From NCBI RefSeq assembly GCF_000011805.1, contig NC_006842.1: a DNA stretch of 32,000 nucleotides; one strand, 5' to 3'. The notes below the pieces were generated by a model. The model was not told the DNA's origin, made no database searches, and saw nothing but the letters and a program-made list of their open reading frames with translations. The position numbers were made by a program, and so were the translations under genes. This DNA is from Aliivibrio fischeri ES114 (GTDB lineage: Bacteria > Pseudomonadota > Gammaproteobacteria > Enterobacterales > Vibrionaceae). Positions 400 through 21,048 of the stretch are shown piece after piece (the first letter of the stretch is position 1; the number at the start of each line of letters is the position of its first letter).

Positions 400-753
400 A
401 TGAAACGATGGTTATTAGCTTTAAGTATGGCTATGACTTTACAAGCCAACGCAGAAACAATGGCCGTTAATATAGACACATTACAAATGCCAGTTCGTAC
501 CATTTTCCCTGCCAATATCACCCATGTTGAGCAAGCCGTTACATGGCTTATTGAACCCATTGGCTATCGTATTCTTACCGATTACCCTGCACCTGAAAGT
601 GCAAAATTACTGTTAGATAGACCTATCCCGATGGCCGCAAAAATGCACCGTACCATGCCATTAGTCGATGCTATCCAATTACTTATCGGGGAAGAAAACA
701 CCATCATCCTTGATAACGAACATCAACTTATTACGTTCTCACGAGGTAACTAA
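400..753 (+). CDS. pilL: PilL-like (N-terminal-domain type) periplasmic thin-pilus biogenesis protein
   Basis: Signal peptide MKRWLLALSMAMTLQANA|ET. The remainder fits my memory of the conjugative PilL N-domain pattern (FP..V..V..A...L..P.GY.L ... LL.RP.P ... L.DAI.LL.G ... L..D...LI.F). It is the first gene of the pil operon. RBS AAAGGA. Confidence 0.55.
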   Translation: MKRWLLALSMAMTLQANAETMAVNIDTLQMPVRTIFPANITHVEQAVTWLIEPIGYRILTDYPAPESAKLLLDRPIPMAAKMHRTMPLVDAIQLLIGEENTIILDNEHQLITFSRGN

Positions 754-1484
754 TGCGTAAACAACATCTACTTGCTACGTCATTACTGGTGATATTGTCA
801 GGCTGTGCTTCTGAGCCAGAATATCAGGGAGATGGCGAATATTTTGAATTAACCAATCGCCACGTTATTGAACGTGATCTTTCGGTATTTCGCTCTACAA
901 CCGTCATTAATACCAGTAAAGCGGCTGTCGCTCCAATTACTCAACCAACCAACGATTACTATGAAGCCACCATTAGTCAAGGGGAGGCGTATAACTCAGC
1001 CGTTAAACGTTGGTTAAAGGCAGAAGGATACAGCAATATCGCATGGTCACTCAGCGACAATAATCGAGCGATCCTCTCTTCACCATCCACAAGCGAATTA
1101 ATCTTTTCAGGCAGTTTAAAACAAGCTCTTGTTGAATTATCAGAGCATTTGCACATGCCAATTAACCTTATCGTCGATGAAAAGGCAAAAGTGGCAGGTA
1201 TTTATGATTTTAATGACGATGTGCGCATTACTCATGTTCAAGGCGATTCGTTACGCCAAGTAACCAAACATTTAATTGAAAACTACGGTTTACGTTGGAA
1301 CGACACCGAAGACAGTGCACGCAGTTGGCTTGTTGATACTAACTACCAGTTCAGCGCAGATTATTACATCATCACTCAATACGATGACATCTCCACAGCA
1401 TTAGAAACTGTGCTTGAGGGTTATCCCGTTTACTCCGAAATTCTTGAGTCCACAGGACAAGTATTCATTCAAGAGGAATTATAA
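753..1484 (+). CDS. pilus-associated lipoprotein with TcpQ/PilL-C-like region
   Basis: Lipobox VILSGC|AS. The segment AVKRWLKAEGYSNIAWSL...FSGSLKQALVELSE resembles the TcpQ-type domain found C-terminally in R64-type PilL. TAATG 1-nt overlaps with both neighbouring genes. Confidence 0.5.
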   Translation: MRKQHLLATSLLVILSGCASEPEYQGDGEYFELTNRHVIERDLSVFRSTTVINTSKAAVAPITQPTNDYYEATISQGEAYNSAVKRWLKAEGYSNIAWSLSDNNRAILSSPSTSELIFSGSLKQALVELSEHLHMPINLIVDEKAKVAGIYDFNDDVRITHVQGDSLRQVTKHLIENYGLRWNDTEDSARSWLVDTNYQFSADYYIITQYDDISTALETVLEGYPVYSEILESTGQVFIQEEL

Positions 1485-2923
1485 TGCGTAAGTTCTTATA
1501 CGGCTCACTGGCTCTGCTTATGTTATCTGGCTGTGCCTCTCAAGAGTTTAAAGATAACCTCGCGTTTAACGACGCAATACATCAAAGCATCGGGGAGCAA
1601 TCAAACTCGAAGTTGTATAAAAAAGTCAATTTCATTACAAAACCACCTATGGTTGTTACACCAATAGTGGAAAATGTGGATATGGAATGGCTAAAAAAAC
1701 CAAGTAATGTGAACGCCATTGAATTACCACTCTCAGTGGTTCTTGAGCAATTAATGAGTGATGTCAATATCCCGATTTATTTCTCAAAAGACGTTCAACC
1801 AAGTACACCTATCACATTAAATTTTTCATCTTCTCGTCAAGATGTTTTAAATTCACTGTCTAAAGAATCAGGATATGGCATTGAATATAAAAACAACCGA
1901 TTAGAAATATCAAAGTACATTACTCGCGTATTCACGCTTAACATGCCATCAGGAACCATGTCAGGGCAATTAGGCTCACAAGGACAATCGTCCAGTGAAG
2001 ACAGTGCTCGCATTGAAGGGCAATATTTAAATGTTGAATATAAAGATGTACAAATCGTTGATGAAATTGCAGCAAGCTTAGAAAAAGTGCTTGGCGGTGA
2101 TGACATCGCTAAAAAGTCTATCTCGGTATCTCCTGCCTTATCGAGCGTGACCGTCACCGCAACGATTGACCAAATGCAAGACATCGAGTACGTCATTGAC
2201 CATTACAAAAAAGAGTTATCAAAACAAGTCATTCTTGACATCCAAATGATTGAGTTTCGCTCAAATCTTGGAACAGAGCATAGTATCGATTGGAATATCG
2301 TAAAAGATACAGGCAACGGCTTACTTCAATTTTTTGTTCCTGGTACTACAACCATTTCTCAAGGTGCTGGCTATGGTCTTGCCTTCACAGGTAAAGGAAA
2401 ATGGACAGGCACAGAGTCTTTTATCAGAGTACTTGAGCAACAAGGTAGCGTATCAACACAAACCCCAATAACAGCAATGATTTTGAACAATCAGCCTGCA
2501 AAAATTACTCAACAAAATGTCATTCCTTACATTTATGAAGCATCAAGCGAAAGCAGCGAAGGCGTAATAAGTGCCAGTGTGACACGTAAAACAGAAGTTG
2601 AAGGGGTTGATATGATGGTGAACTCCATCATTCAAGATGAATACGTTTCTTTACGCATTTCAGGACAACTGCAAAAGATTTTTAACCGCTCAACGGAAAA
2701 AGTCGGTGATGTGAATCTTGGCATGTTAAGCACACAAAAATCTGAAATCACGTTCGCAAACAAATTGCGTTACGGCCAAACCTTCGTCATTGCCTCAGTA
2801 AAACAAACCTCAAAAACTGCGGAGCAAACAAAAAGTTTTTGGACGGAATTATTTGGGGGCACAGGAACCCGTAATGATACCGTTGAAACACTTGTGTTAC
2901 TGACTCCACGCAAAGGCTACTAA
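1484..2923 (+). CDS. pilN: PilN-type outer-membrane secretin lipoprotein (type IVb pilus)
   Basis: Lipobox LMLSGC|AS, 479 aa. The C-terminal half looks secretin-like (QVILDIQMIEF...TQTPITAMILNNQPAKI...VLLTPR). Its position before pilO/P/Q matches the R64 order. Confidence 0.8.
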   Translation: MRKFLYGSLALLMLSGCASQEFKDNLAFNDAIHQSIGEQSNSKLYKKVNFITKPPMVVTPIVENVDMEWLKKPSNVNAIELPLSVVLEQLMSDVNIPIYFSKDVQPSTPITLNFSSSRQDVLNSLSKESGYGIEYKNNRLEISKYITRVFTLNMPSGTMSGQLGSQGQSSSEDSARIEGQYLNVEYKDVQIVDEIAASLEKVLGGDDIAKKSISVSPALSSVTVTATIDQMQDIEYVIDHYKKELSKQVILDIQMIEFRSNLGTEHSIDWNIVKDTGNGLLQFFVPGTTTISQGAGYGLAFTGKGKWTGTESFIRVLEQQGSVSTQTPITAMILNNQPAKITQQNVIPYIYEASSESSEGVISASVTRKTEVEGVDMMVNSIIQDEYVSLRISGQLQKIFNRSTEKVGDVNLGMLSTQKSEITFANKLRYGQTFVIASVKQTSKTAEQTKSFWTELFGGTGTRNDTVETLVLLTPRKGY

Positions 2924-2931
2924 GGAATTTT

Positions 2932-4056
2932 ATGTCAACTCTTTCTTTAGCGACGTTCGTCATTCTGCCATCAGAAAAAGAACTCAAACGACATAGGAAA
3001 TTATATCCTAGTCAATTTGAGCGTATTGTTGAAAATGGCGCCATGCTTCGACGTTATTACTCAATGACTCCTGCTGTACTCTATGGGGAATTTATCAAGC
3101 AACACATTCAACCTCAAAACGACTTCGGTCGTTTTGTTTATATTGAACGCTTAGATGATGAATCCTCTTGGTACGGTGCTGCATTTGAAGACGGTCAATT
3201 ACTGCATGAATACGTTGAATCATTTGAACAACTCATGCAAAACCTTGCTTATGATTGCCATCTGGCCACACATATTTTCACCCCGACAATCTTTGATTCT
3301 ATTTACTCACACAAATTGTCTGTTATTGAAAAGCTAACCGCTTCTCAAGAAACGTATCAATTAGAGCGAATCAATGAGCATCACGCCGAAAAAATCATGG
3401 GAGGATTGATTTTAATCGTGTTGGCACTGTTTATTTCTCTGTACTTATTCATGCCAAAACAAGAGCAACCTGTGAGCTCGAATGAGCCAATCATTGATCC
3501 AACCGCTCAATTTATTCAAAGCTACAACGATAAATTGATTGCATCAAACGTATTAACCAACGCCATTCACTTATTAACAGAAACAGCCTTACTTCCAACA
3601 CCAATGAAAAGTGATGCTGTCACGTTAAGTGGCAATACCTTAATCGCAACGTTAGATAAAAGCACCGTCAACGAGCAAACATGGAAACAGTGGCGAAGCA
3701 ATGACACCACTCTTAACGCTTTATATGTTGAAGCAACAAAAGCATTTACCTTTCCCATTACAAGCATGGCGAAATGGCAACCTTTTGATGTAACGCATTA
3801 TCTTCCAGCGTTTCTTGATGCGCTGAAATTGTTGAATATCACCGTAACAAACCAACAATCCATTCCGCATGGTGACATTACCACTCACTCAATGCTGCTC
3901 ACAATGAAGGGGGAAATAAGCAAAGCCCTGATTTTAAGTGAGCTCATTGATAATCCAGCAATCACAACTAACGCACTAACGTTAACTCGTACTTCAACCG
4001 ATGAAGTTTCATTAACTCTGTCTCTTTCTATACACGGGATCACTTATGGAAACTAA
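2932..4056 (+). CDS. pilO: PilO-like bitopic inner-membrane pilus biogenesis protein
   Basis: 374 aa with a single central TM (GGLILIVLALFISLYLFM) and RBS AAGGA. The assignment is mainly positional (between pilN and pilP). Confidence 0.5.
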   Translation: MSTLSLATFVILPSEKELKRHRKLYPSQFERIVENGAMLRRYYSMTPAVLYGEFIKQHIQPQNDFGRFVYIERLDDESSWYGAAFEDGQLLHEYVESFEQLMQNLAYDCHLATHIFTPTIFDSIYSHKLSVIEKLTASQETYQLERINEHHAEKIMGGLILIVLALFISLYLFMPKQEQPVSSNEPIIDPTAQFIQSYNDKLIASNVLTNAIHLLTETALLPTPMKSDAVTLSGNTLIATLDKSTVNEQTWKQWRSNDTTLNALYVEATKAFTFPITSMAKWQPFDVTHYLPAFLDALKLLNITVTNQQSIPHGDITTHSMLLTMKGEISKALILSELIDNPAITTNALTLTRTSTDEVSLTLSLSIHGITYGN

Positions 4057-4684
4057 GAAAAAAATAACTCTAGGTATTGGCGGTGTCGTCATCATATTGA
4101 TGGGTTCATCAATTGTGATGGATATGTTCAGCAAGCCAACCACGCGAACCGCTCCTGTTACCCCAAAAGCCGTAGTAAGTAACACATCTTCATTTGCGCC
4201 TGAGTCCATTGAAGTAAAAACGGTTCAACCGATTATTCTTGAGCTATCAGATAATGCCAACACGTTATTGAATGCGTTAGATTCAACGTACTTAAGCACC
4301 GTTAATACTCAAGCAAGTGAAGCCAAAATCAAAGAGCTCGAAAAACAAAAGCAACTCGACGATCTTGTGTTTGAGCTCACTTATGGTGAACGCGATGACC
4401 CCGAACCTGAGAAAAACTACTACGTGCAACCTGTAAAAACGGCACCGTCCATTATTGACCGTCTACAAGTAAACAGCATCATTAATGATACGGCTTTTAT
4501 TGATGTGTCTGGTCAAGTTATTCCCGTTAAAAAAGGGGATAACGTTGAAGATGCAAAAATCACTCGCATCACCAAAAACACGGTTGTACTGACTCGTAAC
4601 AATCAGTCATTTACAAAATACATTAAAGCTGCACCAATCAAAGTAGCGATTAAAAAGGAAAGCGAGGATGTTAGATCACAATAA
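4046..4684 (+). CDS. pilP: PilP-like pilus biogenesis protein
   Basis: N-terminal TM (LGIGGVVIILMGSSIV). The C-terminal beta-rich segment (VSGQVIPVKKGDNVEDAKITRITKNTVVLTRNNQ) is typical of PilP-family secretin-docking domains. Overlaps pilO by 11 nt and pilQ by 17 nt. Confidence 0.55.
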   Translation: METKKKITLGIGGVVIILMGSSIVMDMFSKPTTRTAPVTPKAVVSNTSSFAPESIEVKTVQPIILELSDNANTLLNALDSTYLSTVNTQASEAKIKELEKQKQLDDLVFELTYGERDDPEPEKNYYVQPVKTAPSIIDRLQVNSIINDTAFIDVSGQVIPVKKGDNVEDAKITRITKNTVVLTRNNQSFTKYIKAAPIKVAIKKESEDVRSQ

Positions 4685-6221
4685 CATCATCCAATCGGAT
4701 GAATTGAAATCCATCTACTTCTTACATCAAGATACGGTAATTACGCACAACGGTGAAATCTTCACCTGTGATTTTGAAAGTCCATCTGTTGATAAAATTG
4801 ATGCATTAATAAAAAAACACCCTGAACTATTGACCGATCCTTTCCGCTCAATAACCGTCAAAAAAATAGAACGTACCGCAATTACTCACATCATTGAAGA
4901 TATGTCGAGCTCAACTCACCATTCTTTAATCGATCATGAGTCCCTCAATGCAGTCGCTGAACGTGCCGTTGAGATATTACAAAATTCAGCAATGCGTGAA
5001 GTGTCCGACATTCACATCGAGTTATACGCGAAACAAACCCGAATTGAAGGCCGAATTGATGGAAGAATGGTGGCATTACAGCCTCCTGTTCCTGAGCACG
5101 AATATGGGAAGTTGTTGTTTGGCTATCTATTTAATGAGCTGGCCGTTGATAAAGACGATGATTTTTATCAAAACAAAATAAACAACGGACGAATTGAAAT
5201 TGATCTCAATACCCCCGATGGATTACGCGAAACGCTTTGGCGAATTGGTTACATTCCAGCCAAAGACAATGGCGGTCAAGCGACACTTAGATGGCTAAAC
5301 AAAAATGAATCAGTTCCCCTACTAGATAACATTGGTTGGGAGACTGGACACGTAAAAATCATGCGTGACTTTTCAAATAGTGCCTCTGGTATTTGTATCC
5401 TTGCTGGACAAACAGGCTCAGGTAAAACTACCACCATTGCCAGTATCATCAATGAGTTAAAAGGAAAAGGCCGATCAATTAACACCTTAGAAGATCCTGT
5501 GGAATTTGACTTGGGAGTTATGCAGTCATCCGTCGTTAGTCAAAACGATGATGAAGATCTGATGTTTAAATACGCGAAAGCCTTACTTCGTCACGATGTA
5601 GACATCGAATCTCACGGTGAAATGCGAGATATGAAAGATGCGATGAACGTTTGTCGTAAAGGGGAAACGGGGCAGATCATGTTTACCACCATGCACACCT
5701 CGTCAGCCATTGGTATTGGACATACATTAAATGAGCAAATGCACGTACCTAGTGCCTTAATTGCTGCACCGAACTTAATGAAGTTATGGATTTACCAAAC
5801 CCTTGTTCGTACTTTATGCCCTCACTGCAACTTATCTCTTGATGACGTTACCCCTCATTTAAATAACGATCAAAAAGAAAAATTAGATAAGTGGCTCACC
5901 GAACGTGACGACCATGTGTTGAAAGCCAATATGCGATTCAAAAATCCATCAGGCTGTGAGCATTGTAACGAAGGTGAAAAAGGCCGAACTACCTTGGTTG
6001 AAATGATCGTTCTGGATGATGAAGACCGTTTATTTATTTCAAATAAAGATTATCTAGGTTGGTCAAAATCCTTATTAAAAAAAGGATTTAAACCAATAAG
6101 TGAACATGCCGCATTGAAAATCAAACGAGGTCAAGTTGATTTATTTACGGCAAATGAGCGAGTCAATGGATTGCTGACGAATAATTCAACCGATGTGTAT
6201 CAACAACTGTGGGATGAATGA
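4668..6221 (+). CDS. pilQ: PilQ, GspE/PilB-family pilus assembly ATPase
   Basis: Walker A GQTGSGKTT, Asp box TLEDPVEF, Walker B region HDVDIESHGEMRD, His box MFTTMHTSSA and a tetracysteine CPHC...CEHC. RBS AAGGAA 7 nt upstream. Confidence 0.9.
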   Translation: MLDHNNIIQSDELKSIYFLHQDTVITHNGEIFTCDFESPSVDKIDALIKKHPELLTDPFRSITVKKIERTAITHIIEDMSSSTHHSLIDHESLNAVAERAVEILQNSAMREVSDIHIELYAKQTRIEGRIDGRMVALQPPVPEHEYGKLLFGYLFNELAVDKDDDFYQNKINNGRIEIDLNTPDGLRETLWRIGYIPAKDNGGQATLRWLNKNESVPLLDNIGWETGHVKIMRDFSNSASGICILAGQTGSGKTTTIASIINELKGKGRSINTLEDPVEFDLGVMQSSVVSQNDDEDLMFKYAKALLRHDVDIESHGEMRDMKDAMNVCRKGETGQIMFTTMHTSSAIGIGHTLNEQMHVPSALIAAPNLMKLWIYQTLVRTLCPHCNLSLDDVTPHLNNDQKEKLDKWLTERDDHVLKANMRFKNPSGCEHCNEGEKGRTTLVEMIVLDDEDRLFISNKDYLGWSKSLLKKGFKPISEHAALKIKRGQVDLFTANERVNGLLTNNSTDVYQQLWDE

Positions 6222-7237
6222 TGGCTAAATCAATACCAAAATTAAAGCAAGTCGCTTTACTGGAGAAAATCGCTCAGCTATCAAAAGCGGGTATCCATCA
6301 ACGTAATATTGCAGTGCAACTCAGTAAATACGGGCATGGTGTTGAAAAAGAAATAGGTCAATCATGCCTTGATGCGATTGGCTCTGGACAATCTTTTTCT
6401 CATGGATTAGAGCACTGGATAAGCATAAACGCTTATCAAAGCTTATCCAGTGGGGAAGCGGTTGGTGAGTTCGTTCGCGGTGTACAAGAGGCGATTGAAG
6501 CACTTAATGTTGATGAAGCCAGTACTGGCGCATTATTCAAAGTACTCATTAAACCCATTGGAGGGTTAGGAGCCATACTCGGTATCAGTGCCCTACTCTC
6601 TAAATACGCTTACCCTTCATTATTAAAACAATTACCTATCCATCGTTGGGGCGGATTATCCCAATTCTCTTACGATTTTGGTTTATTTTGGCTCAACTAC
6701 GGTGTTGTGGTCATTGTTTTAACTATTGGCTTAATAGGGTTTGTTGCTCTTACCATTTCAAAAAACGGTAACTATCGAAAAGCATTCGATAACTTGCCTT
6801 TCTATAAACAATATCGACTGATACAAAGCGCGAACTTGCTTTCGTCTATTGCTCACCAAACCTTGGTTGGCAAGAGTTTGAAAAAATCACTATTGCACTA
6901 CCAAAAATCAAGCTCTGCGTATTTATCGGCTCATATTCAAACCATGCTAAACACGTTAGGAGGAGGTAAATCCAACGTAGGTGATATTTTTAACTCAGGT
7001 CTACTTCTTGATGAAGAGCACAGCACCTTAGTACTCCTTGGTGAAATAGGAAAAACACCAGAAACCTTGTACAAAAGCGCGCTCATTCATCGTGCAAAAT
7101 TACTTACTGACGTTAATCGTCTAAAAACATGGGGCGACAACATCATCAAAATTGGCGTAGGGCTTATTGCTTTCGTTGTTATTGGTGGTCTTCTTAGCCT
7201 TATCTTCAACATTGCCATGAATCAAGGGGCATTTTAA
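6218..7237 (+). CDS. pilR: PilR, GspF/PilC-like inner-membrane platform protein
   Basis: 339 aa with polytopic hydrophobic segments (around residues 105-125, 160-180, 310-330). ATGA overlap with pilQ. Position matches R64 pilR. Confidence 0.75.
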   Translation: MMAKSIPKLKQVALLEKIAQLSKAGIHQRNIAVQLSKYGHGVEKEIGQSCLDAIGSGQSFSHGLEHWISINAYQSLSSGEAVGEFVRGVQEAIEALNVDEASTGALFKVLIKPIGGLGAILGISALLSKYAYPSLLKQLPIHRWGGLSQFSYDFGLFWLNYGVVVIVLTIGLIGFVALTISKNGNYRKAFDNLPFYKQYRLIQSANLLSSIAHQTLVGKSLKKSLLHYQKSSSAYLSAHIQTMLNTLGGGKSNVGDIFNSGLLLDEEHSTLVLLGEIGKTPETLYKSALIHRAKLLTDVNRLKTWGDNIIKIGVGLIAFVVIGGLLSLIFNIAMNQGAF

Positions 7238-7732
7238 ATGACAACTTTTTCAACTGCTAAAAAACGTAATAAAAAACAACTTGGTGCTTTAAGTATCGAT
7301 GGAATGATTTACACCAGTGCCATTATTATCAGCGTACTGTTTGTTATGTCTAAAGGACCAGCACTTTGGTATAAAATTAACACCGCAAGATTTTCAGCTC
7401 AAGCCTCTGAAATTGTTCAAGCAACTCAAGGGCGAGCAAACCTAGCAACCTTAACCATTGCAAAACTGTGTGCTCGTGATGCACTAGATAAAGGCATTTG
7501 TGGTACAGCAAATGACGGTCGTGGTACGAACCCATTTGGTGGCGATTGGATTTTATCGGGTAATGCTAGCTCTTCTGCACTTATTGATTTAACCGCTACG
7601 CTACCAAATGATCAAAACAGAGTATTAGATCTTGCGGACTTAATGGCACCAACAACTCGTTCTGGATGTACCGAAGCAACAGGCTGTTCAACCATTAAAA
7701 CAACCGCAGACTCTGTTGTAATGACTTACTAA
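7238..7732 (+). CDS. pilS: PilS-like type IVb major prepilin
   Basis: Basic leader ending KKQLG|ALSID with an acidic residue at +5, then a hydrophobic helix (MIYTSAIIISVLFVM). Four Cys in the C-terminal half. 164 aa. Confidence 0.7.
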   Translation: MTTFSTAKKRNKKQLGALSIDGMIYTSAIIISVLFVMSKGPALWYKINTARFSAQASEIVQATQGRANLATLTIAKLCARDALDKGICGTANDGRGTNPFGGDWILSGNASSSALIDLTATLPNDQNRVLDLADLMAPTTRSGCTEATGCSTIKTTADSVVMTY

Positions 7733-7734
7733 TC

Positions 7735-8214
7735 ATGCGTCACCAACGCGGATCATTTAGCGTTGGATTACTTCAATACCTTTCAATATCCCTCATTATT
7801 CTGGTGTTCTTCACTAGCTCATTACTTAATGTCTTGTCTGATATGCGCCTTGCAAAAGAGATTCATGTATCAGTTCAAGAAATAAGGCAAAAAAGCGCGT
7901 TGCACTACGCAAACCAAGTATTGCAAAGTCGCTGTTTGCCTCAAACCACATTAACAATGGCGTTAATTGGAATACCAGATAATGACGGGTTGGCTAAGTA
8001 TGATGTTAAGTACATTCAACGAGCGCAACCCAATAGCGCACCCTCTGGAATAGAGATCCGTGCAACCTTACACGATAAAGAAATGGTTGAACGTGTTGCA
8101 CGATTGCTATCCCCAACTCAACAAAACAACGACACCTTTATTTTTCATTTTCCATTAAGAAATCAGTTACATGATTGGCAACAATTAAATGTAAATAACG
8201 GGTGTATCAAATAA
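7735..8214 (+). CDS. prepilin-like protein (putative minor pilin)
   Basis: Leader MRHQRG|S followed by a hydrophobic helix (LSISLIILVFFTSSLL). Cys67 and Cys157 could form a pilin D-region disulfide. No SLT or peptidase motif despite occupying the R64 pilT/pilU position. Confidence 0.45.
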   Translation: MRHQRGSFSVGLLQYLSISLIILVFFTSSLLNVLSDMRLAKEIHVSVQEIRQKSALHYANQVLQSRCLPQTTLTMALIGIPDNDGLAKYDVKYIQRAQPNSAPSGIEIRATLHDKEMVERVARLLSPTQQNNDTFIFHFPLRNQLHDWQQLNVNNGCIK

Positions 8215-8224
8215 GGAAACCAAA

Positions 8225-9181
8225 TTGAAAAAACAACGAGGCTTTGCTTCCATTGTTTCGTTACTTATTGTTACTGCCGCTTTAATCATTGGTATTCAAC
8301 AATGGTCTGCGTACAAAACAAAGCAACGCATCATAGCAACCAGTGAATCTTTTTATAACCGTGTGTTATTTATCAATGAACAATTTCATGCGTTCGCCCA
8401 CGATAAATACTTATCTGGTGTAGGCATTAACACACAACATATTTTCCCATTCAAATTTATCGACTTAGAAGGAGATTATCTACCTACATGCTCAAATGAA
8501 GACAATCAGAAAGGGTACTGTTTTAAATACAATCAAACGCCTTGGGGGGAAATAGCAGAGAAAGATTACGTTGTTGTTCCCGTTCCTAATGCTATTAGTC
8601 CTACCCACTATCGAGCTGAACTTACGCTGACATTGCCTGATAAAAACAATGATGCATTGAAGTTTGATAGAGAGGCCACGATCCAATTATTCGCTCAACT
8701 TCCTAACATCACTTATGACGAGGTAAAAAACCAAATTGTTTTACGTATTGAACGTCCAGATAAAGCACTGGCTTATGATTCATTAGTAAAACGAAGCGGT
8801 GATGATTCAACGTTATTAGGCGATTGGGATACAGGAGGCAACCACGCCATAACCAACGCAAAAGACTACACAATCAGAAATAGCGACGGGAGTCAGCAAT
8901 TAGTCAGTACAGGGTTAGTCAAAATCTTTCAGGTTAAACACGGGGATTTTATAGATAAACCCAAATGTCCTGAGAACCAGCAACCCGATCTAACTTTAAG
9001 TCTTCACACTGTCATTATCTCCAACAAATACACCTTAACAGGCAGTATTAAGCCTTTCAGGTTGTCAGAAACCGCCACCCAATGGCAAGCAGGACTACAA
9101 GTTAGAGTAGTTCTAAATTCAACAGGTAAAGCAGACAAAATAACCACTGGAATTATGACTGCTTTTGTTCAATGTAAATAA
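8225..9181 (+). CDS. pilV: PilV-like prepilin-type tip/adhesin protein
   Basis: TTG start with RBS AAGGAAAC upstream. Leader MKKQRG|FASIV plus hydrophobic helix (SLLIVTAALIIG). 318 aa, last pilin-like gene as in R64. No shufflon repeats are seen at its 3' end. Confidence 0.6.
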   Translation: MKKQRGFASIVSLLIVTAALIIGIQQWSAYKTKQRIIATSESFYNRVLFINEQFHAFAHDKYLSGVGINTQHIFPFKFIDLEGDYLPTCSNEDNQKGYCFKYNQTPWGEIAEKDYVVVPVPNAISPTHYRAELTLTLPDKNNDALKFDREATIQLFAQLPNITYDEVKNQIVLRIERPDKALAYDSLVKRSGDDSTLLGDWDTGGNHAITNAKDYTIRNSDGSQQLVSTGLVKIFQVKHGDFIDKPKCPENQQPDLTLSLHTVIISNKYTLTGSIKPFRLSETATQWQAGLQVRVVLNSTGKADKITTGIMTAFVQCK

Positions 9182-9194
9182 AAAAGGAAAGACC

Positions 9195-9617
9195 ATGAAA
9201 ATGAAGAAAACACTCTTAGCTACCGTATTATTCGGATGCGTATTAAGCGGCTCAGTATTTGCGGAAAAAGTAACGTATGACAAAGCCGTTGCCGATGCAC
9301 AAGCTTACCACGACTCATTACCTCAGTATGAAAACGCTATTGAGGGTTTAGGGCCAGATGAAACGGGTAGCACAACCGCTGGTGCAAACCAGATGGGGAA
9401 ATGGGTAAATCTTGGTGCATCCAGCATAAAAAGCGCGGGAGCTTATACCACTATGCTTGCACCTAGTGCCATTGGTAAATCCTGTATAAAAGGGGACAGA
9501 GGATGGATCTCCAAAACACGCGAAGAATGTATTATTTTTAATGGTGGTAGCACATCATGTAGAAAATACCGAACGGAGCTAGACGCTGAAAACGGTTACA
9601 AAGCGGAATGCCGCTAA
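9195..9617 (+). CDS. secreted 4-Cys protein, last gene of the pil operon
   Basis: I prefer ATG 9195 (RBS AAGGAAAG at 9184-9191) to the ORF-track start at 9165. Signal peptide MKMKKTLLATVLFGCVLSGSVFA|EK (an atypical LFGC lipobox is also possible). Followed at once by a strong terminator. Confidence 0.5.
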   Translation: MKMKKTLLATVLFGCVLSGSVFAEKVTYDKAVADAQAYHDSLPQYENAIEGLGPDETGSTTAGANQMGKWVNLGASSIKSAGAYTTMLAPSAIGKSCIKGDRGWISKTREECIIFNGGSTSCRKYRTELDAENGYKAECR

Positions 9618-9624
9618 TAACTAA

Positions 9625-9648
9625 TAGTTAATTTAAGGAGGAGTTACT
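9625..9648 (+). terminator. rho-independent terminator ending the pil operon
   Basis: Perfect 9-bp stem AAGGAGGAG (9625-9633) / CTCCTCCTT (9637-9645) with loop TTA, then TTT. Confidence 0.75.
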
Positions 9649-9789
9649 CCTCCTTTTTGGTATATAACATTTGATCATAAACACCCTTTTCTTAGACCAA
9701 AAGATCATATTTAATTTAAATAAAAAACAGATACTTAAGTTATTTTTAATAGTATAATCAAACCTATAAATTGAATAGGAATTATAACA

Positions 9790-10821
9790 ATGAAAATCAA
9801 AAATATTGCGTTACTTATGGCTGGGTTATCCTTTAATGCACTGGCTATTGAAAACGGCACATCGGTGAATTGGAATAACTACGATGACATGGTCAAACTG
9901 TATTCTACTGATAACGCCCAAACTTGCTCAGGCACACTGATTGCAGGTAAATACCTTTTGACTGCTGCGCACTGCTTAGTGCAAGACAACCCAACAACAA
10001 AAGTAAAATCAACTTGGGGGCAGCAATACACCGTCATTACTGACAATACGCACCCTGATTATGATGTATTTAATGGTAATTGGCATGACGTGGCAATTTC
10101 TGAATTAAACCAATCAATTGATGCAAAAACTGTTCATTTCTTTGCTGATTTAACCAAAGATACGGTTAAAGAAAATGACGCATTGCGTGTTTTTGGCTTT
10201 GGTGCAACGGGCGAACAACTTAATTACGCATCATTAACTATGATTAATGAAGTTGGTGGGCCGCAAGACCGCTTAGATGGTAAAGTCATTACCAACGGTG
10301 CTGGTGATATTACTGGAGGCAATACCATTGGTGGTGATTCAGGCGGTGCATGGCTAAATAAAAATAATACTATTGTCGCCACTCACAAAGGCGGAGATTG
10401 GTTAAACTCTGTTAGAGAAACCTACTCAACCAACTTGCATTACAGCAAACAATTTATTTTAGATACGGTCAATGGTTGGCATTACCCAACGCTGGCGAAT
10501 ACTTCTAATGGCACCGCAACCATTACCGTTCAATCACTGCACGTAAACCCAACAGTGGATACGGCTTACACCTCTGGTGATGCAACTATTACTGGCGGTA
10601 CTTGTACAACAATGAGCTCGGTATCTGCATTTAAAACGTGTACTTATGAAATCGAAAGCCAAGGCGGTATCGGTGCACTTCACTTAACGGATAATGAAAC
10701 TATCTCAATCAATAAACCAACACCAACGCCTGAAACCTCTGGCGGTGGAGAAGAAGGCGGTAGTCTTGGATTCTTATCCCTAATCGGATTACTTGGCCTT
10801 GGTGTCATCAGAAGAAAATAG
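9790..10821 (+). CDS. VesB-like trypsin-fold serine protease with C-terminal GlyGly-CTERM (rhombosortase) sorting signal
   Basis: Catalytic triad motifs LTAAHC, WHDVAI and GDSGGAW. Signal peptide ...SFNALA|IENG. A beta-rich C-terminal domain follows. C-terminus is SGGGEEGGSLGFLSLIGLLGLGVIRRK (Gly-Gly, TM helix, basic tail). Confidence 0.9.
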   Translation: MKIKNIALLMAGLSFNALAIENGTSVNWNNYDDMVKLYSTDNAQTCSGTLIAGKYLLTAAHCLVQDNPTTKVKSTWGQQYTVITDNTHPDYDVFNGNWHDVAISELNQSIDAKTVHFFADLTKDTVKENDALRVFGFGATGEQLNYASLTMINEVGGPQDRLDGKVITNGAGDITGGNTIGGDSGGAWLNKNNTIVATHKGGDWLNSVRETYSTNLHYSKQFILDTVNGWHYPTLANTSNGTATITVQSLHVNPTVDTAYTSGDATITGGTCTTMSSVSAFKTCTYEIESQGGIGALHLTDNETISINKPTPTPETSGGGEEGGSLGFLSLIGLLGLGVIRRK

Positions 10822-10822
10822 A

Positions 10823-10999
10823 ATGAAACCACAACGAGGTAAAGAAAGACCCTTTATCGCATTGGAAATGACAGCAAAGCATGAGAAATACGGATTTACC
10901 TCATTGGAAACATTATCAACATGGAACTCAAAGATAAGCAAAAACAAAGAGACTCATTTCACTTGTAAAAAAGAATCGACGTTGATTATCCCAAAATAA
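10823..10999 (+). CDS. possible 58-aa basic hydrophilic protein co-transcribed with the protease
   Basis: ATG 1 nt after the protease stop. The only terminator of the unit lies after this ORF (11021-11048). No signal peptide and no recognised motif. Could be spurious. Confidence 0.3.
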   Translation: MKPQRGKERPFIALEMTAKHEKYGFTSLETLSTWNSKISKNKETHFTCKKESTLIIPK

Positions 11000-11020
11000 A
11001 CAACACCGCTACCCAATAAA

Positions 11021-11048
11021 AAGCAGACCTAATCGGTTTGCTTTTTTT
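11021..11048 (+). terminator. rho-independent terminator of the protease unit
   Basis: Stem AAGCAGACC (11021-11029) / GGTTTGCTT (11035-11043) with one G:U, loop TAATC, then a T-run to 11048. Confidence 0.6.
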
Positions 11049-11080
11049 ATTCCTGTTATTTACTCAATTGGATCACACTT

Positions 11081-11713
11081 ATGCTACTTCTTTTTTTAGA
11101 GCTGATATCTATTCCTATCATGTTGATAGCAATGTTCTTTTCCATTTATATTATTCAAACCACACCATCAACCATTCATAATTTAAATCATCGATACCAA
11201 AAAACAGGAGGCATTGGTATTGCAATAATATGCACAACTCTACTTGGTTTACCTGAGCCCAATTATTTATTGTATGGCCTTATTATCGGATTTTTGATTT
11301 TCCATTTTTTCTATGGGTTTAGTGTTACCTCCACGCGCACACAATCACTGGTTATCGTTCCATCGTTACTGAATAAACATCAAGTACAAGTTCATTTAGC
11401 TACCCTGTCACAACCATTTACTCGTAACGTGTATAACGATTTATTCTTAGTCATAGAAGAACTGAAAGCCACGAATGTTCGCACCGTGATATTAGTATCA
11501 CCGATGTTTTCTAAAAAGACAGAATTACGAAATACCTTATTCTTTGAATCCATATTGAAAAAACGAAACATTGCCTTAGAAAGTCATCCTGTTGCGTTCT
11601 ACACAAAACCTTGGTCATGCTTCCTATTAGGCATTCAAAAATACCTATTACAAATACCTAGTATCCAATCCTTGCCATTAACACGCTGGCATAAATACAC
11701 ACTGCACATTTAA
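11081..11713 (+). CDS. hypothetical membrane protein (3 N-terminal TM segments plus ~120-aa soluble domain)
   Basis: Long ORF with hydrophobic N-terminus (LISIPIMLIAMFFSIYII, IGIAIICTTLLGL, LLYGLIIGFLIFHFFYGF). No obvious RBS and no family recognised. Confidence 0.4.
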   Translation: MLLLFLELISIPIMLIAMFFSIYIIQTTPSTIHNLNHRYQKTGGIGIAIICTTLLGLPEPNYLLYGLIIGFLIFHFFYGFSVTSTRTQSLVIVPSLLNKHQVQVHLATLSQPFTRNVYNDLFLVIEELKATNVRTVILVSPMFSKKTELRNTLFFESILKKRNIALESHPVAFYTKPWSCFLLGIQKYLLQIPSIQSLPLTRWHKYTLHI

Positions 11714-11823
11714 ACCTAACACGCCAAATCACGATTATCAGAATGATAATTGGGAATTGGGGTGCAACAAAGCGAAGCGACGTTAGTTCTCTTCAACCAT
11801 CTTAAAGTAAAGGAAATATTTTT

Positions 11824-12132
11824 ATGAACACGACAGTTTCATACACTTCATCACGGCCATTATTTATCATTTTATGTTTAGTAGTGTTGGTTTTTGCTCT
11901 TTTCCCTGAGTTAGCTCATGCTTCTGGTGGATTAAACAAAGTTAATGATTTTATGGAAGACTTAGCGAAAATTTTACGTGGTGCGTCCATCGTGACTGTA
12001 ACCGTAGCCCTTATGTGGATAGGTTATAAATATCAATTCACTGATTGGGATATTCGAGAGTTTGGAAGAATACTCATGGGTGCGCTGTTAATCGGTGGTG
12101 CTGCTGAGATTGCTCGTTACTTTGTATCATAA
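11824..12132 (+). CDS. virB2: VirB2/TrbC-family T4SS pilin
   Basis: 102 aa. Long signal-like leader ending ELAHA|SGG and two hydrophobic helices (ASIVTVTVALMWIGY; ILMGALLIGGAAEIA). First gene of the T4SS operon. Confidence 0.8.
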   Translation: MNTTVSYTSSRPLFIILCLVVLVFALFPELAHASGGLNKVNDFMEDLAKILRGASIVTVTVALMWIGYKYQFTDWDIREFGRILMGALLIGGAAEIARYFVS

Positions 12133-12143
12133 GGAGAGTAACC

Positions 12144-12446
12144 ATGTCTGAGCCGATATTTAAAGCCTGTACTCGCCCCTCAATGCTGTTTTCAGTCCCA
12201 TTAGTACCGTTAATGCTCTCTAATGCCATTATCTTTTTAGTTGGCATGTGGGCGAACTACTTTGGTCTTGGACTGTGGCTCTTTATTCTTACTATTCCGA
12301 ACTACTTAACTTTACGGTTTATCACCAAATTGGATGATGCCAATCTCAGTCTGTTAGGACTGAGATTTAAATGTCGTCGAATGAATCGTAATCGTTCTTT
12401 TTATGGGGCGACGGTATATAGCCCTTTACCATTTAAAAAGAGATAA
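12144..12446 (+). CDS. virB3: VirB3-family T4SS inner-membrane protein
   Basis: 100 aa. Opens with the typical sequence ...FKACTRPSMLFSVP followed by two TM segments. Lies directly upstream of virB4. Confidence 0.75.
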   Translation: MSEPIFKACTRPSMLFSVPLVPLMLSNAIIFLVGMWANYFGLGLWLFILTIPNYLTLRFITKLDDANLSLLGLRFKCRRMNRNRSFYGATVYSPLPFKKR

Positions 12447-12449
12447 ACC

Positions 12450-14903: not shown

Positions 14904-14997
14904 CCTTTTATTATTAAGCGGCTGCTCTAGCGTCTCACCACACGCTCAACCATCCTATCAACAAGCTCCGATTGAGGTGATTAATGATGCTCAATAA
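14875..14997 (+). CDS. small VirB7-like lipoprotein (40 aa)
   Basis: ATG 14875 with RBS AAGGAG at 14863-14868. Lipobox LLLLSGC|SS. It overlaps the virB4 3' end (29 nt) and the virB8 start (14 nt). The ORF-track start at 14773 is rejected. Confidence 0.55.
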   Translation: MNNITLLCLSLLLLSGCSSVSPHAQPSYQQAPIEVINDAQ

Positions 14998-15667
14998 AAA
15001 AGAACAAGCCGCTTTATTTGAAGGCTCTGAGGCTCTGGATTTTGAAGCATCAAAAATGTTAATGGTCGCTAAATCAGAGAATCGAGCGTGGAACATAGCA
15101 AAAGGCGCATGTGCTCTCACGTTTTTATCATGGTTAGCTTTGATCTTTCTTATGCCACTAAAAACGGTTGTGCCTTACGTCGCAATGGTGAATGAAACCA
15201 CAGGTCATACACAATTACTGACAACCATCACCGAAGAGACCATTAGCAAACAAGATGCCCTTGATGCTTATTGGGTGGCCTACTACGTGCGTAATCATGA
15301 AACTTATGATTGGTACACCATTCAAGACAGTTATGACAACACACTGTTACTTTCTAGTGACGAGGTTGGCCGTGATTATGCTGGACTCTTTGAAGGCAAT
15401 AATGCCCTTGATTCGGTATGGGGTAAACGAGTGAAAGCTCAGGTTCGTTTACTCAGTAAACCTATCATCAAGAATAACATTGCTACGGTACGATTTGAAA
15501 AAACCATTAAATCCGTCGATGACACAGGAAAAGGACAACCGACGGTATGGATAGCAACACTTGCTTATCAATACAAATCAGACCCACTAACAGAAGAAGA
15601 ACGCCTTAAAAATCCATTAGGATTTCAGGTGGTCAGTTATCGATTAGATCCCGAACTTATGGAATAG
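14984..15667 (+). CDS. virB8: VirB8-family T4SS protein
   Basis: 227 aa with an N-terminal TM (ACALTFLSWLALIFLM). The C-terminal hallmark NPLGFQVVSYRLDPE is present. RBS GAGGTG. Confidence 0.85.
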   Translation: MMLNKKEQAALFEGSEALDFEASKMLMVAKSENRAWNIAKGACALTFLSWLALIFLMPLKTVVPYVAMVNETTGHTQLLTTITEETISKQDALDAYWVAYYVRNHETYDWYTIQDSYDNTLLLSSDEVGRDYAGLFEGNNALDSVWGKRVKAQVRLLSKPIIKNNIATVRFEKTIKSVDDTGKGQPTVWIATLAYQYKSDPLTEEERLKNPLGFQVVSYRLDPELME

Positions 15668-15673
15668 AATAAT

Positions 15674-20682: not shown

Positions 20683-20697
20683 TTTAAAAGGAAGAAT

Positions 20698-21048
20698 ATG
20701 ATGCTTTCAAAAGGTGTAAATAAAGTCATCTTACTTGGTCATCTTCGGCAAGATCCTGAAATAAGCTATAACCGATTTGGAAAAATCATTGCTCATTTCA
20801 CCTTAGCGACAGAAGAATCTTGGCAAGATAAAGCAACAGGCCAACAGCGTGAAAATACGGAATACCATAGAGTGGTTGTTTTAGGGAGATTAGCCAAAGT
20901 GATTAAAAGTAAAACGAAAAAAGGCACTCAAGTTTATCTGGAGGGCAAGAACAAAACCATTAAACGGCAAGACGATAATGGTAAAGACTATTACTTAACT
21001 GAGGTAATGGTTGGAGAACATAACGGCGTTATCCAAATAGCAAAATAA
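20698..21048 (+). CDS. ssb: single-stranded DNA-binding protein, OB-fold only (no linker or acidic tip)
   Basis: Aligns without gaps to my memory of the E. coli SSB core (GVNKVIL.G.L.QDPE ... TLAT.ESW.DKATG......E.HRVV..G.LA.V ... G.QVY.EG). Ends at residue 116. Confidence 0.8.
   Translation: MMLSKGVNKVILLGHLRQDPEISYNRFGKIIAHFTLATEESWQDKATGQQRENTEYHRVVVLGRLAKVIKSKTKKGTQVYLEGKNKTIKRQDDNGKDYYLTEVMVGEHNGVIQIAK

What the first reader, a model, noticed from the sequence alone, without database searches (positions are those of the whole stretch)
9790..10821. Mobile-element-borne VesB-like protease with GlyGly-CTERM signal, apparently without a propeptide and with a non-trypsin S1 residue
An intact His/Asp/Ser protease ends in GGSLGFLSLIGLLGLGVIRRK, which fits the GlyGly-CTERM signal. 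In Vibrio and Shewanella this signal is processed by a chromosomal rhombosortase after T2SS export. No rhombosortase is in the window, so a transferable cargo gene depends on recipient machinery. The predicted signal-peptidase cut (ALA|IENG) would directly expose the Ile N-terminus equivalent to trypsin IVGG, suggesting activation without a propeptide. Counting back from the catalytic Ser (NTIGGDS) puts Asn, not Asp, at the position-189 equivalent, and the Cys191 equivalent is missing. The gene sits in its own terminator-bounded unit between the mating-pilus and T4SS operons.
Basis: partly seen in the sequence, partly recalled or inferred. Interest (0 to 1): 0.7.

Follow-up and report, generated by a model that had tools for sequence, protein, structure and literature searches.

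The report
Serine protease tied to conjugative pili
The gene is a real, intact trypsin-fold protease with a GlyGly-CTERM membrane-sorting tail on the Aliivibrio fischeri plasmid pES100, and it is not loose cargo but a fixed last gene of a type IV pilus gene set that travels with conjugation machinery in well over a hundred marine and aquatic plasmids.

Summary
ORF 9790-10821 encodes a 343-aa protein, 100% identical to pES100 VF_B0035. It has a Sec signal peptide, an S1A protease domain with an intact His61/Asp100/Ser184 triad, an Ig-like domain, a linker and a GlyGly-CTERM tail that scores above the curated cut-off.

- The signal-peptidase site directly abuts the Ile that aligns with trypsin Ile16, so there is no propeptide. 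This is true across the family.
- Position 189 is Asn, not Asp. It varies in the family, and His is commonest.
- Hairpin terminators flank the unit.

VesB and VesC are the best structural matches, but at only 18% identity.

The "cargo gene" reading is wrong. In 22 of 25 genome loci, and in plasmids of Vibrio, Aliivibrio, Photobacterium, Shewanella, Aeromonas and Dongshaea (including the shrimp-disease plasmid pVA1), the protease follows a colinear pilL-to-pilV type IVb pilus cluster. This holds on at least three conjugation backbones. In one Aeromonas plasmid the pilus-plus-protease block sits between virB9 and virB10.

I conclude it is a VesB-architecture protease recruited as an accessory of conjugative type IVb pili and dependent on host sorting machinery. 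Its substrate is unknown. Homologues are already annotated, so novelty is moderate.

The parts
400..9181 (+). Type IVb (R64/PAPI-1-like) conjugative pilus cluster. Genes: pilL-like 400-753, lipoprotein with weak TcpQ similarity 753-1484, PilN-like secretin 1484-2923, 2932-4056, PilP/TraP-like 4046-4684, PilQ-like ATPase 4668-6221, PilR/platform 6218-7237, prepilin 7238-7732, minor prepilin 7735-8214, PilV-like prepilin 8225-9181.
   Evidence: Pfam Secretin and T2SSE hits. Sub-threshold NCBIfam hits to conj_PilL, PilN type IVB and PilP/TraP. Prepilin-type N-termini read directly. The cluster is colinear in 22 of 25 related loci.
9165..9617 (+). Small (150 aa) signal-peptide protein, VF_B0034 by gene order. 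It is the most highly expressed gene of the cluster and was exchanged together with the protease.
   Evidence: ORF. Conserved in about 10 loci. No family hit. Lies inside the mosaic tract 8818-10541. logFC 4.42 and logCPM 9.3.
9635..9655 (+). Terminator-like hairpin (9 pairs plus a T-run) between the pil genes and the protease.
   Evidence: Induction drops from about 21-fold (VF_B0034) to about 2.5-fold (VF_B0035) across it.
9753..9758 (+). Perfect TATAAT -10 hexamer with a poor -35. Candidate promoter of the protease's own.
   Evidence: Read directly. The two-hexamer scan did not report it. High baseline expression (logCPM 8.06) is consistent. This is an inference.
9790..10821 (+). Protease gene VF_B0035, 343 aa.
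9790..9846 (+). Sec signal peptide (residues 1-19), with the cut predicted at NALA|IENG.
   Evidence: The -3/-1 Ala rule read directly. Ala at -1 in 110 of 114 homologues, and Ala/Ser/Val at -3 in 109 of 114.
9847..10470 (+). S1A (chymotrypsin-fold) catalytic domain, residues 20-227. Key residues: I20 (=Ile16), C46-C62, H61 (9970-9972), D100 (10087-10089), N178 (=189; 10321-10323), D183 (=194), S184 (10339-10341).
   Evidence: Pfam. HMMER alignments to trypsins. AF2 pLDDT 88.6 overall and above 90 in this domain. Foldseek matches to trypsins at rmsd about 3.3 A.
10471..10725 (+). Ig-like beta-sandwich C-terminal domain (residues 228-312), with near-invariant WHYPT, QSLH and the C272-C284 pair.
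   Evidence: AF2 pLDDT 95. Best PDB match is the VesB Ig domain, TMq 0.63. A profile search finds it in 127 representative clusters; most listed hits are about 300-370 aa with the domain in the same C-terminal position, and all eight longer hits read in full had the protease-plus-tail architecture.
10726..10755 (+). Low-confidence Pro/Thr/Gly/Glu linker (residues 313-322).
   Evidence: pLDDT below 50 at residues 318-325.
10756..10818 (+). GlyGly-CTERM sorting signal GGSLGFLSLIGLLGLGVIRRK.
   Evidence: TIGR03501 22.4 bits against a cut-off of 15.5. A tail of this type is present in 118 of 120 homologues.
10823..10999 (+). Small conserved ORF. It is 58 aa from the ATG 1 nt after the protease stop, or 43 aa from the ATG at 10868. 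It lies inside the same terminator-bounded unit.
   Evidence: tblastn gives 42-61% identity at the same position in Aliivibrio loci L006, L007, L009 and L011.
11018..11046 (+). Terminator-like hairpin (12 pairs plus a T-run) closing the unit.
11081..11713 (+). Conserved membrane protein of about 210 aa (VF_B0036 by gene order) that follows the protease in about 15 related loci. Function unknown and start codon uncertain.
   Evidence: No family hit.

Best explanation
VF_B0035 is a secreted two-domain serine protease: an S1A catalytic domain plus an Ig-like domain, the same architecture as Vibrio cholerae VesB. It belongs to a small, distinct family that has become a fixed accessory gene of a type IVb conjugative pilus module. 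That module is carried by plasmids and integrated elements of Vibrionaceae, Shewanella and Aeromonas.

Proposed pathway:
1. Sec export and signal-peptidase cleavage at Ala19|Ile20 create the Ile N-terminus. In S1A enzymes this N-terminus pairs with Asp194 (here D183). The enzyme is therefore competent as soon as it folds, with no zymogen step. The residues and the alignment are shown; the activity is inferred.
2. The GlyGly-CTERM helix holds the protein in the inner membrane. The host's chromosomal rhombosortase then cuts at the Gly-Gly and attaches a glycerophosphoethanolamine-type anchor. This step is inferred from VesB.
3. The protein is then either moved to the cell surface, by the host T2SS or by the plasmid's own T2SS-like pilus machine, or it stays on the periplasmic face. 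This is not resolved.
4. It acts together with the pilus. The most likely setting is the donor cell surface, with the PilV-like tip protein and the small secreted protein VF_B0034, during mating-pair formation or release. This is inferred from synteny and from co-exchange of these three parts.

Its S1 pocket is not trypsin-like, and the substrate is unknown.
For: Identity and architecture.

Family-wide conservation of the triad, the propeptide-less N-terminus and the GlyGly-CTERM.

Linkage to the pilus module:
- Colinear pilL-to-pilV genes lie immediately 5' of the protease in 22 of 25 genome loci.
- The same holds in the Shewanella baltica OS195 plasmid and a chromosomal copy, in V. parahaemolyticus plasmids and in pVA1, where it is ORF5.
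- It holds in A. fischeri pKB1A97-67 on an MPF_G/MOBH backbone, in Aeromonas pS121-1a and in V. gangliei at the edge of detectable homology.
- In Aeromonas pAcaBE3 the block sits between virB9 and virB10.

Plasmid counts by genus match between secretin and protease: 143 plasmids with the secretin against 115 plus the Aeromonas-type set.

A 1.7-kb mosaic tract was exchanged between two different A. fischeri plasmid backbones. It holds the PilV C-terminal 120 aa, VF_B0034 and protease residues 1-250.

The gene is transcribed in ES114, at logCPM 8.06.

Host machinery: the genera where the family is found, except Dongshaea (status not established), are listed with GlyGly-CTERM proteins, and V. fischeri MJ11 has five plus a rhombosortase. 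The VesB pathway comes from PMC6219818 and PMC13393428.
Against: There is no experimental datum on this family: no activity, localisation or conjugation phenotype.

The gene has its own hairpin boundaries. It is induced only about 2.5-fold when the adjacent pil genes rise about 21-fold, so it is not simply co-regulated with the pilus.

Three chromosomal homologues lack pilus neighbours (L021, L026, L028).

The R64, PAPI-1 and SPI-7 type IVb conjugative pili work without such a protease (established knowledge), so it cannot be a core biogenesis factor.

Rhombosortase in ES114 itself was not checked directly. The 189 position varies, so the substrate class may differ between members.
Confidence: 0.6

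Rival explanations
1. It is ordinary accessory cargo: a VesB-like surface or secreted protease used by the host for nutrition, biofilm remodelling or virulence. On this view it sits next to the pilus genes by historical accident and has no role in pilus function or conjugation.
For: It has its own hairpin-bounded unit and a candidate promoter. Its expression is decoupled from the neighbouring pil genes. The architecture is VesB-like. It is present on virulence plasmids such as pVA1. Stand-alone chromosomal copies exist.
Against: Cargo is normally variable. Here position and order are kept from about 80% down to about 20% identity of the pilus genes, on three or more backbones and in six genera. 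In pAcaBE3 the gene lies inside the virB operon. It was co-exchanged with the PilV tip domain.
Confidence: 0.2
2. The pil cluster is, at least in part, a T2SS-like export machine, and the protease (with VF_B0034) is its cargo. The parallels are TcpF and CofJ, exported by type IVb pili, and the proteases whose secretion depends on type IV fimbrial biogenesis in Dichelobacter. The plasmid would then bring its own outer-membrane translocator and need only the host rhombosortase.
For: The protease and the small secreted protein are encoded at the 3' end of the pilus operon, as tcpF and cofJ are (established knowledge). GlyGly-CTERM plus rhombosortase gives only membrane association, and a second signal and machine are needed to cross the outer membrane (PMC13393428). 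Synteny is conserved. The pVA1 literature already annotates the cluster as type II secretion.
Against: The protein shows no homology to TcpF or CofJ. VesB uses the chromosomal T2SS, which these hosts have. Three pilus-less chromosomal copies keep the sorting tail. There is no direct evidence.
Confidence: 0.12
3. It is an inner-membrane-tethered periplasmic processing protease. Lacking a zymogen step, it is active in the periplasm and trims a component of the pilus or of the T4SS, such as PilV, the PilN lipoprotein or VF_B0034, before or instead of being exported.
For: There is no propeptide family-wide, whereas VesB is kept inactive until after outer-membrane translocation. GlyGly-CTERM alone gives membrane retention. 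In pAcaBE3 it is embedded in the virB operon.
Against: A free active S1A protease in the periplasm is risky, and no inhibitor gene was identified. The conserved Ig-like domain, linker and sorting tail mirror the surface-displayed VesB. Related type IVb pili need no such step.
Confidence: 0.08

Closest known systems
VesB (and VesA/VesC) of Vibrio cholerae: GlyGly-CTERM trypsin-like serine proteases
   Same: Both have a signal peptide, an S1A domain, an Ig-like domain, an unstructured linker and a GlyGly-CTERM. VesB (4lk4) and VesC (6bqm) are the top Foldseek hits for the whole protein, and VesB is top for the isolated C-domain. The expected sorting route is the same: rhombosortase and then an outer-membrane translocator.
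   Different: Identity is only 18%, and the sequence match is partial (E 1e-3, residues 18-143). There is no propeptide, whereas VesB is activated at Arg32-Ile33 after export. There is no Asp189 and no Cys191-Cys220. The C-domain family is not detectably shared with VesB at sequence level. The gene is plasmid-borne and fixed to a type IVb pilus cluster, whereas vesB is a chromosomal stand-alone gene.
Type IVb conjugative (thin) pilus clusters: R64 pilI-V, PAPI-1 pilL2-pilV2, Salmonella SPI-7
   Same: Gene order is PilL, lipoprotein, PilN secretin, PilO, PilP, PilQ ATPase, PilR, PilS prepilin, PilV-like prepilin. There are sub-threshold NCBIfam hits to conj_PilL, PilN type IVB and PilP/TraP. 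The cluster is associated with T4SS transfer genes.
   Different: Those systems have no S1 protease (established knowledge). Here no PilU prepilin peptidase, shufflon or rci was found in the window ORFs examined. All family scores fall below curated cut-offs, so this is a divergent sub-type. It carries three extra conserved 3' genes: the small secreted protein, the protease and a 210-aa membrane protein.
TcpF / CofJ: soluble proteins encoded in and exported by type IVb pilus operons
   Same: The gene lies at the 3' end of a type IVb pilus operon, next to the tip or minor-pilin gene. Co-exchange of the PilV C-terminal domain with VF_B0034 and the protease recalls CofJ binding the CofB C-terminal domain.
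   Different: There is no sequence or fold similarity. The protease has its own C-terminal membrane-sorting signal. The function here is tied to conjugation, not to gut colonisation.
Plasmid-borne surface proteases of conjugative or virulence plasmids (F OmpP, Yersinia Pla omptins)
   Same: Both are outer-surface proteases carried by transmissible plasmids.
   Different: The fold is unrelated (omptin beta-barrel against S1A) and so is the anchoring. Omptins are not linked to pilus genes.

Membership tests
GlyGly-CTERM sorting-signal proteins (TIGR03501) | HMM score above the curated cut-off | tested here: met
   22.4 bits against a cut-off of 15.5, residues 323-343.
GlyGly-CTERM sorting-signal proteins (TIGR03501) | [quoted passage not shown] | tested here: met
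   The tail is GGS-LGFLSLIGLLGLGVI-RRK, and AF2 models residues 326-342 as a helix. The signal peptide is residues 1-19. A tail of this type is present in 118 of 120 homologues.
GlyGly-CTERM sorting-signal proteins (TIGR03501) | A rhombosortase (TIGR03902) encoded in the same genome | not tested
   None is in the window. The ES114 chromosome could not be searched here. In the literature, conspecific V. fischeri MJ11 has five GlyGly-CTERM proteins and is not among the four genomes lacking rhombosortase (PMC3237569).
GlyGly-CTERM sorting-signal proteins (TIGR03501) | Cleavage by rhombosortase and C-terminal lipid-type modification | not testable with these tools
   Shown only for VesB (PMC6219818).
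Peptidase family S1, subfamily S1A (chymotrypsin fold) | Pfam PF00089 above the gathering score, and a double beta-barrel fold | tested here: met
   58.8 bits against 20.6. Foldseek matches to trypsins, thrombin and kallikreins at E about 1e-11 and rmsd about 3.3 A.
Peptidase family S1, subfamily S1A (chymotrypsin fold) | Catalytic triad in the order His-Asp-Ser, with the GDSGG oxyanion motif | tested here: met
   H61, D100 and S184 are present in every aligned family member that has a residue there (117-120 of 120).
Peptidase family S1, subfamily S1A (chymotrypsin fold) | Activation by a new Ile/Val N-terminus pairing with Asp194 | tested here: inconclusive
   I20 aligns with residue 1 of mature trypsin and D183 aligns with Asp194.
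Peptidase family S1, subfamily S1A (chymotrypsin fold) | Synthesis as a zymogen with a propeptide | tested here: not met
   The signal-peptide A-x-A site directly abuts I/V-x-N/D-G: Ala at -1 in 110, Val/Ile at +1 in 103 and Gly at +4 in all 114 homologues with an N-terminus.
VesA/VesB/VesC group (trypsin-specificity GlyGly-CTERM proteases of Vibrio) | Significant full-length sequence similarity | tested here: not met
   phmmer E 1e-3 over residues 18-143 only, and 18% identity in the structural alignment.
VesA/VesB/VesC group (trypsin-specificity GlyGly-CTERM proteases of Vibrio) | S1A + Ig-like domain + GlyGly-CTERM architecture | tested here: met
VesA/VesB/VesC group (trypsin-specificity GlyGly-CTERM proteases of Vibrio) | Asp189 (Arg/Lys specificity) and an Arg-Ile activation site | tested here: not met
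   N178 sits at position 189, and the family shows H/N/S/Q/E/K/Y/D there. There is no propeptide.
Type IVb conjugative pilus cluster (R64 PilL-PilV type), context of the gene | Curated family models for PilL, PilN and PilP | tested here: inconclusive
   conj_PilL 34.6 bits against 64.15. PilN type IVB 91 against 287.65. PilP 17.1 against 34.65. All are below cut-off but are the best or only hits.
Type IVb conjugative pilus cluster (R64 PilL-PilV type), context of the gene | Secretin, PilB-type ATPase, platform protein, prepilins with long leaders, and location within a conjugative transfer region | tested here: met
   VirB2-D4, relaxase-associated genes and TrbL are in the window.

The most novel reading that the evidence does not exclude
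The protease, the small secreted protein VF_B0034 and the C-terminal domain of the PilV-like tip pilin may form one exchangeable specificity cassette of conjugative type IVb pili. On this reading a propeptide-less, lipid-tethered S1 protease on the donor surface cleaves a pilus or recipient-surface component, and so controls the formation or release of mating pairs. That would be a proteolytic step in conjugation with no counterpart in the R64, F or RP4 paradigms. It would also make these plasmids, including the AHPND plasmid pVA1, dependent on host rhombosortase for efficient spread.
Probability: 0.3. Interest if true: 0.7.

Novelty: new variant of a known kind. Interest (0 to 1): 0.45.

Why it matters
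If the protease really works with the pilus, it adds a proteolytic component to conjugative mating-pair formation. It would also tie the host range of a large plasmid group to a chromosomal sorting enzyme, rhombosortase. That group includes the pVA1-type plasmids behind acute hepatopancreatic necrosis disease in shrimp and the large Aeromonas plasmids recovered from clinical and aquaculture isolates.

The idea is easy to test. pES100 and pVA1 are genetically tractable, and VesB assays and rssP mutants already exist.

The family is also a natural example of an S1A protease that uses signal-peptide removal as its activation event. If instead it proves to be plain cargo, the result is only a better annotation of a protein now labelled 'trypsin-like serine protease'.

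Tried and rejected
- Rfam scan of the whole window found no RNA family.
- Lenient Pfam and NCBIfam scans gave nothing usable for the 150-aa protein, the 210-aa protein or the isolated C-domain.
- I considered that the 210-aa downstream protein might be a rhombosortase or an A24 prepilin peptidase. I rejected this because it has no Rhomboid or Peptidase_A24 hit and no conserved Asp or Ser-His motifs in its membrane segments.
- I considered that the C-domain might occur in pilus or other proteins. I rejected this because the profile search of 1.84 billion representatives found 127 clusters, most of protease length with the domain in the same position, and all eight longer hits read in full had the same protease architecture.
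- I considered Glu-specificity, on the grounds of T179 at position 190, a conserved His in the IVAxHKG strand resembling the V8 'GIHxGG' motif, and the JGI label 'V8-like Glu-specific endopeptidase'. I could not settle it because model coordinates cannot be inspected, so it stays a lead only.
- Literature searches found no functional study. These covered pES100, pYJ016/p23023, pVA1 with trypsin, and conjugative plasmid with type IV pilus and trypsin-like protease.
- A direct search for rhombosortase in ES114 was not possible, for lack of a query sequence and of whole-genome access.
Full report
**What the window is.** The 343-aa product of ORF 9790-10821 is 100% identical to the 'possible trypsin protease precursor (plasmid)' of Aliivibrio fischeri ES114. 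The longest contig carrying it is 45,849 bp, which is pES100. A published RNA-seq table gives the locus tag as VF_B0035. The nearest plasmids in PLSDB are A. fischeri pES657-44 and pKB1A97-67. pES657-44 is 94% identical in DNA, and there the gene is split by frameshifts.

**Checking the observation.** The ORF is real and complete.
- Pfam Trypsin matches residues 22-202 to profile positions 3-198, at 58.8 bits and E 9e-16.
- The GlyGly-CTERM model TIGR03501 matches residues 323-343 at 22.4 bits, above its curated cut-off of 15.5.
- HMMER alignments to Streptomyces trypsins and Der p 3 put I20 opposite residue 1 of the mature enzymes. They put N178, T179 and I180 opposite Asp189, Ser/Thr190 and Cys191, followed by GDSGG.
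- The protein has four cysteines only. These are the 42-58 equivalent pair (C46, C62) and a pair in the C-terminal domain.
- Terminator-like hairpins lie at 9635-9655 and 11018-11046.
- None of the 30 plus-strand window ORFs of at least 90 aa that were scanned (753-31985) has a Rhomboid domain.

**Structure.** An AlphaFold2 model built on 52 family members is confident, with mean pLDDT 88.6 and pTM 0.83. Confidence is low only in the signal peptide and in the linker before the tail. Foldseek against the PDB ranks V. cholerae VesB (4lk4, E 1e-14) and VesC (6bqm) first. Both alignments span all 342 columns at 15-18% identity. Bacterial and animal trypsins follow and cover only the catalytic domain. 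The C-terminal 85 residues, modelled alone (pLDDT 95), form an Ig-like sandwich. Its best, though weak, PDB match is again VesB, at TMq 0.63. 'VesB-like' is therefore right for architecture and fold. By sequence, however, the relation to VesB is marginal (E 1e-3, residues 18-143 only).

**The family.** The big protein database holds 220 homologues with E <= 1e-5. All named ones come from Aliivibrio, Vibrio or Shewanella. Across the best 120:
- His, Asp and Ser are present in every aligned member that has a residue at those positions (117-120 of 120).
- Ala is at -1 in 110 of 114, Val or Ile at +1 in 103 of 114, and Gly at +4 in 114 of 114.
- A GlyGly-CTERM-type tail is present in 118 of 120.

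The absence of a propeptide is thus a family trait. VesB, by contrast, is a zymogen cut at Arg32-Ile33 after outer-membrane translocation (PMC6219818).

The 189-equivalent position is variable (His 54, Asn 23, Ser 11, Gln 8, Glu 6, Lys 4, Tyr 3, Asp 2). The S1 pocket is therefore not trypsin-like, and Asn is not diagnostic.

The C-terminal domain is the most conserved part. WHYPT, QSLH and a Cys pair are nearly invariant in the Vibrio, Aliivibrio and Shewanella members. The Aeromonas members read have variant forms of the two motifs (WAYPA/WSYPA, QNLN/QSFH). A profile of this domain, run against 1.84 billion representative proteins, finds 127 clusters. Most listed hits are about 300-370 aa with the domain in the same C-terminal position, and all eight longer hits read in full had the protease-plus-tail architecture.

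**Context is the main correction.** Upstream of the gene lies a type IVb pilus cluster. It holds a PilL-like gene, a lipoprotein, a PilN-like secretin, two unassigned genes, a PilQ-like ATPase, a platform protein and three prepilin-like genes. Downstream lie VirB2-B11 and VirD4.

The same colinear pilus cluster sits immediately 5' of the protease in 22 of 25 loci recovered from species-representative genomes. It also does so in these elements:
- the Shewanella baltica OS195 plasmid and an integrated copy;
- V. parahaemolyticus plasmids;
- pVA1, the AHPND plasmid, where the gene is listed simply as 'ORF5 trypsin protease';
- pKB1A97-67, on a quite different MPF_G/MOBH backbone;
- Aeromonas pS121-1a;
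- V. gangliei, at the limit of detectable similarity.

In Aeromonas caviae pAcaBE3 the pilus-plus-protease block is inserted between virB9 and virB10.

In PLSDB the secretin occurs in 143 plasmids: Vibrio 109, Aeromonas 18, Shewanella 11, Aliivibrio 2, Photobacterium 2, Dongshaea 1. The protease, searched with two queries, occurs in essentially the same taxa and numbers. The pES100 query finds 115 plasmids. The Aeromonas query adds Aeromonas 19, Photobacterium 2 and Dongshaea 1. No enterobacterial plasmid has it.

The three exceptions are chromosomal stand-alone copies, and two of them, in Psychromonas, have lost the catalytic His.

A gene kept in one position while its neighbours diverge from about 80% to about 20% identity, on three or more conjugation backbones, is a module component and not cargo.

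**A hint about partners.** pES100 and pKB1A97-67 have very different pilus genes (26-38% amino-acid identity for the secretin, ATPase and platform protein). Yet they share a 1.7-kb tract of 73.6% DNA identity, at window 8818-10541. The tract comprises the C-terminal ~120 residues of the PilV-like protein, the whole small secreted protein VF_B0034, and protease residues 1-250. These three parts have moved together between backbones within one host species. This fits a model in which they work together. It recalls the R64 PilV C-terminal specificity segments and the CofB-CofJ pairing of type IVb pili. Both comparisons rest on established knowledge and are analogies only.

**Transcription.** In a published ES114 data set (rscS* ΔsypG against wild type), VF_B0033 and VF_B0034 rise about 21-fold. 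The protease rises 2.5-fold from a high baseline (logCPM 8.06), and VF_B0036 barely changes from a low level. This agrees with the hairpin at 9635-9655 and with a promoter of the protease's own. A perfect TATAAT lies at 9753-9758, but it has a poor -35 and the scan did not call it. The unit also contains a small conserved ORF (10823 or 10868 to 10999). It is followed by a conserved 210-aa membrane protein that accompanies the protease in about 15 loci.

**Dependence on the host.** The window has neither a rhombosortase nor an A24 prepilin peptidase. The family was found only in Vibrio, Aliivibrio, Photobacterium, Shewanella, Aeromonas, Psychromonas and Dongshaea. All of these except Dongshaea are listed with GlyGly-CTERM proteins by Haft and Varghese. 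Their Table S1 already includes the Shewanella baltica OS195 homologue YP_001557123. V. fischeri MJ11 has five GlyGly-CTERM proteins and is not among the four genomes that lack a rhombosortase. I could not search the ES114 chromosome itself.

Two points of the published model matter here. First, rhombosortase acts before, not after, T2SS engagement. Second, GlyGly-CTERM plus rhombosortase gives only membrane association, and a separate signal is needed to cross the outer membrane. The final location of this protease is therefore open. It could be the surface via the host T2SS, the surface via the plasmid's own T2SS-like pilus machine, or the periplasmic face of the inner membrane.

**Verdict.** The best explanation is a VesB-architecture, propeptide-less S1A protease that has been recruited as a conserved accessory of a conjugative type IVb pilus module and that relies on host sorting enzymes. 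Its identity, architecture and linkage are shown. Its activation, sorting and role with the pilus are inferred, and its substrate is unknown. Members are already annotated, and one was catalogued in 2011. I found no paper noting the linkage to conjugative pili or testing any member. Novelty is moderate (a new variant of a known kind) and interest is about 0.45.

Noticed in passing
window 10823-10999 (alternative start 10868): A small basic ORF (58 or 43 aa...HEKYGFTSLETLSTWNSKISKNKETHFTCKK...) starts 1 nt after the protease stop and ends just before the terminator. It is conserved at 42-61% amino-acid identity at the same position in Aliivibrio loci L006, L007, L009 and L011, and is duplicated in L007 and L011. 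It has no signal peptide, and its function is unknown.
   Followed up: partly
window 11081-11713: A membrane protein of about 210 aa (VF_B0036 by order) follows the protease in about 15 related loci and is often followed by a lytic transglycosylase. Its C-terminal motif is conserved (VIPS..HVHL..Y.EL..L...TLTSPLF.K..LR). It has no Pfam or NCBIfam hit. A promoter-like site at 11123-11152 lies inside the listed ORF, so the true start may be further downstream.
   Followed up: partly
window 8818-10541 versus L002 7213-8953: A mosaic tract of 73.6% DNA identity links pES100 and pKB1A97-67. It covers the PilV C-terminal third, the small secreted protein and protease residues 1-250. The flanking pilus genes and the protease Ig-like domain are only 15-38% identical at protein level.
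   Followed up: yes
window 7238-9181: Three prepilin-like proteins have Gly-ended leaders (KKQLG|A, MRHQRG|S, MKKQRG|F). No A24 prepilin peptidase was found in the scanned window ORFs, so the pilus probably depends on the host PilD, as PAPI-1 does.
   Followed up: partly
L026 9977-11008 and L028 9953-10963 (Psychromonas chromosomes): These are stand-alone chromosomal homologues without pilus neighbours. TAAHC is replaced by TAEQC, so the catalytic His is lost, yet a GlyGly-CTERM-like tail is kept. They may be pseudo-proteases.
   Followed up: no
L031 (Aeromonas caviae pAcaBE3) 9051-22105: The whole pilus-plus-protease block is inserted between a long virB9-family gene and virB10, so type IVb pilus genes and T4SS genes appear to form one operon.
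   Followed up: partly
window 9165-9617: VF_B0034, a 150-aa Cys-containing signal-peptide protein with no family hit, is the most abundant transcript of the cluster (logCPM 9.3) and is induced about 21-fold in the rscS* ΔsypG background. It is a candidate pilus-associated secreted protein.
   Followed up: partly
L001 (pES657-44) 12788-13818: In the closest plasmid record the protease is annotated as two CDS, 'trypsin-like serine protease' and 'GlyGly-CTERM sorting domain-containing protein'. Many neighbouring genes are also fragmented, which suggests frameshift errors in that record rather than real decay.
   Followed up: no
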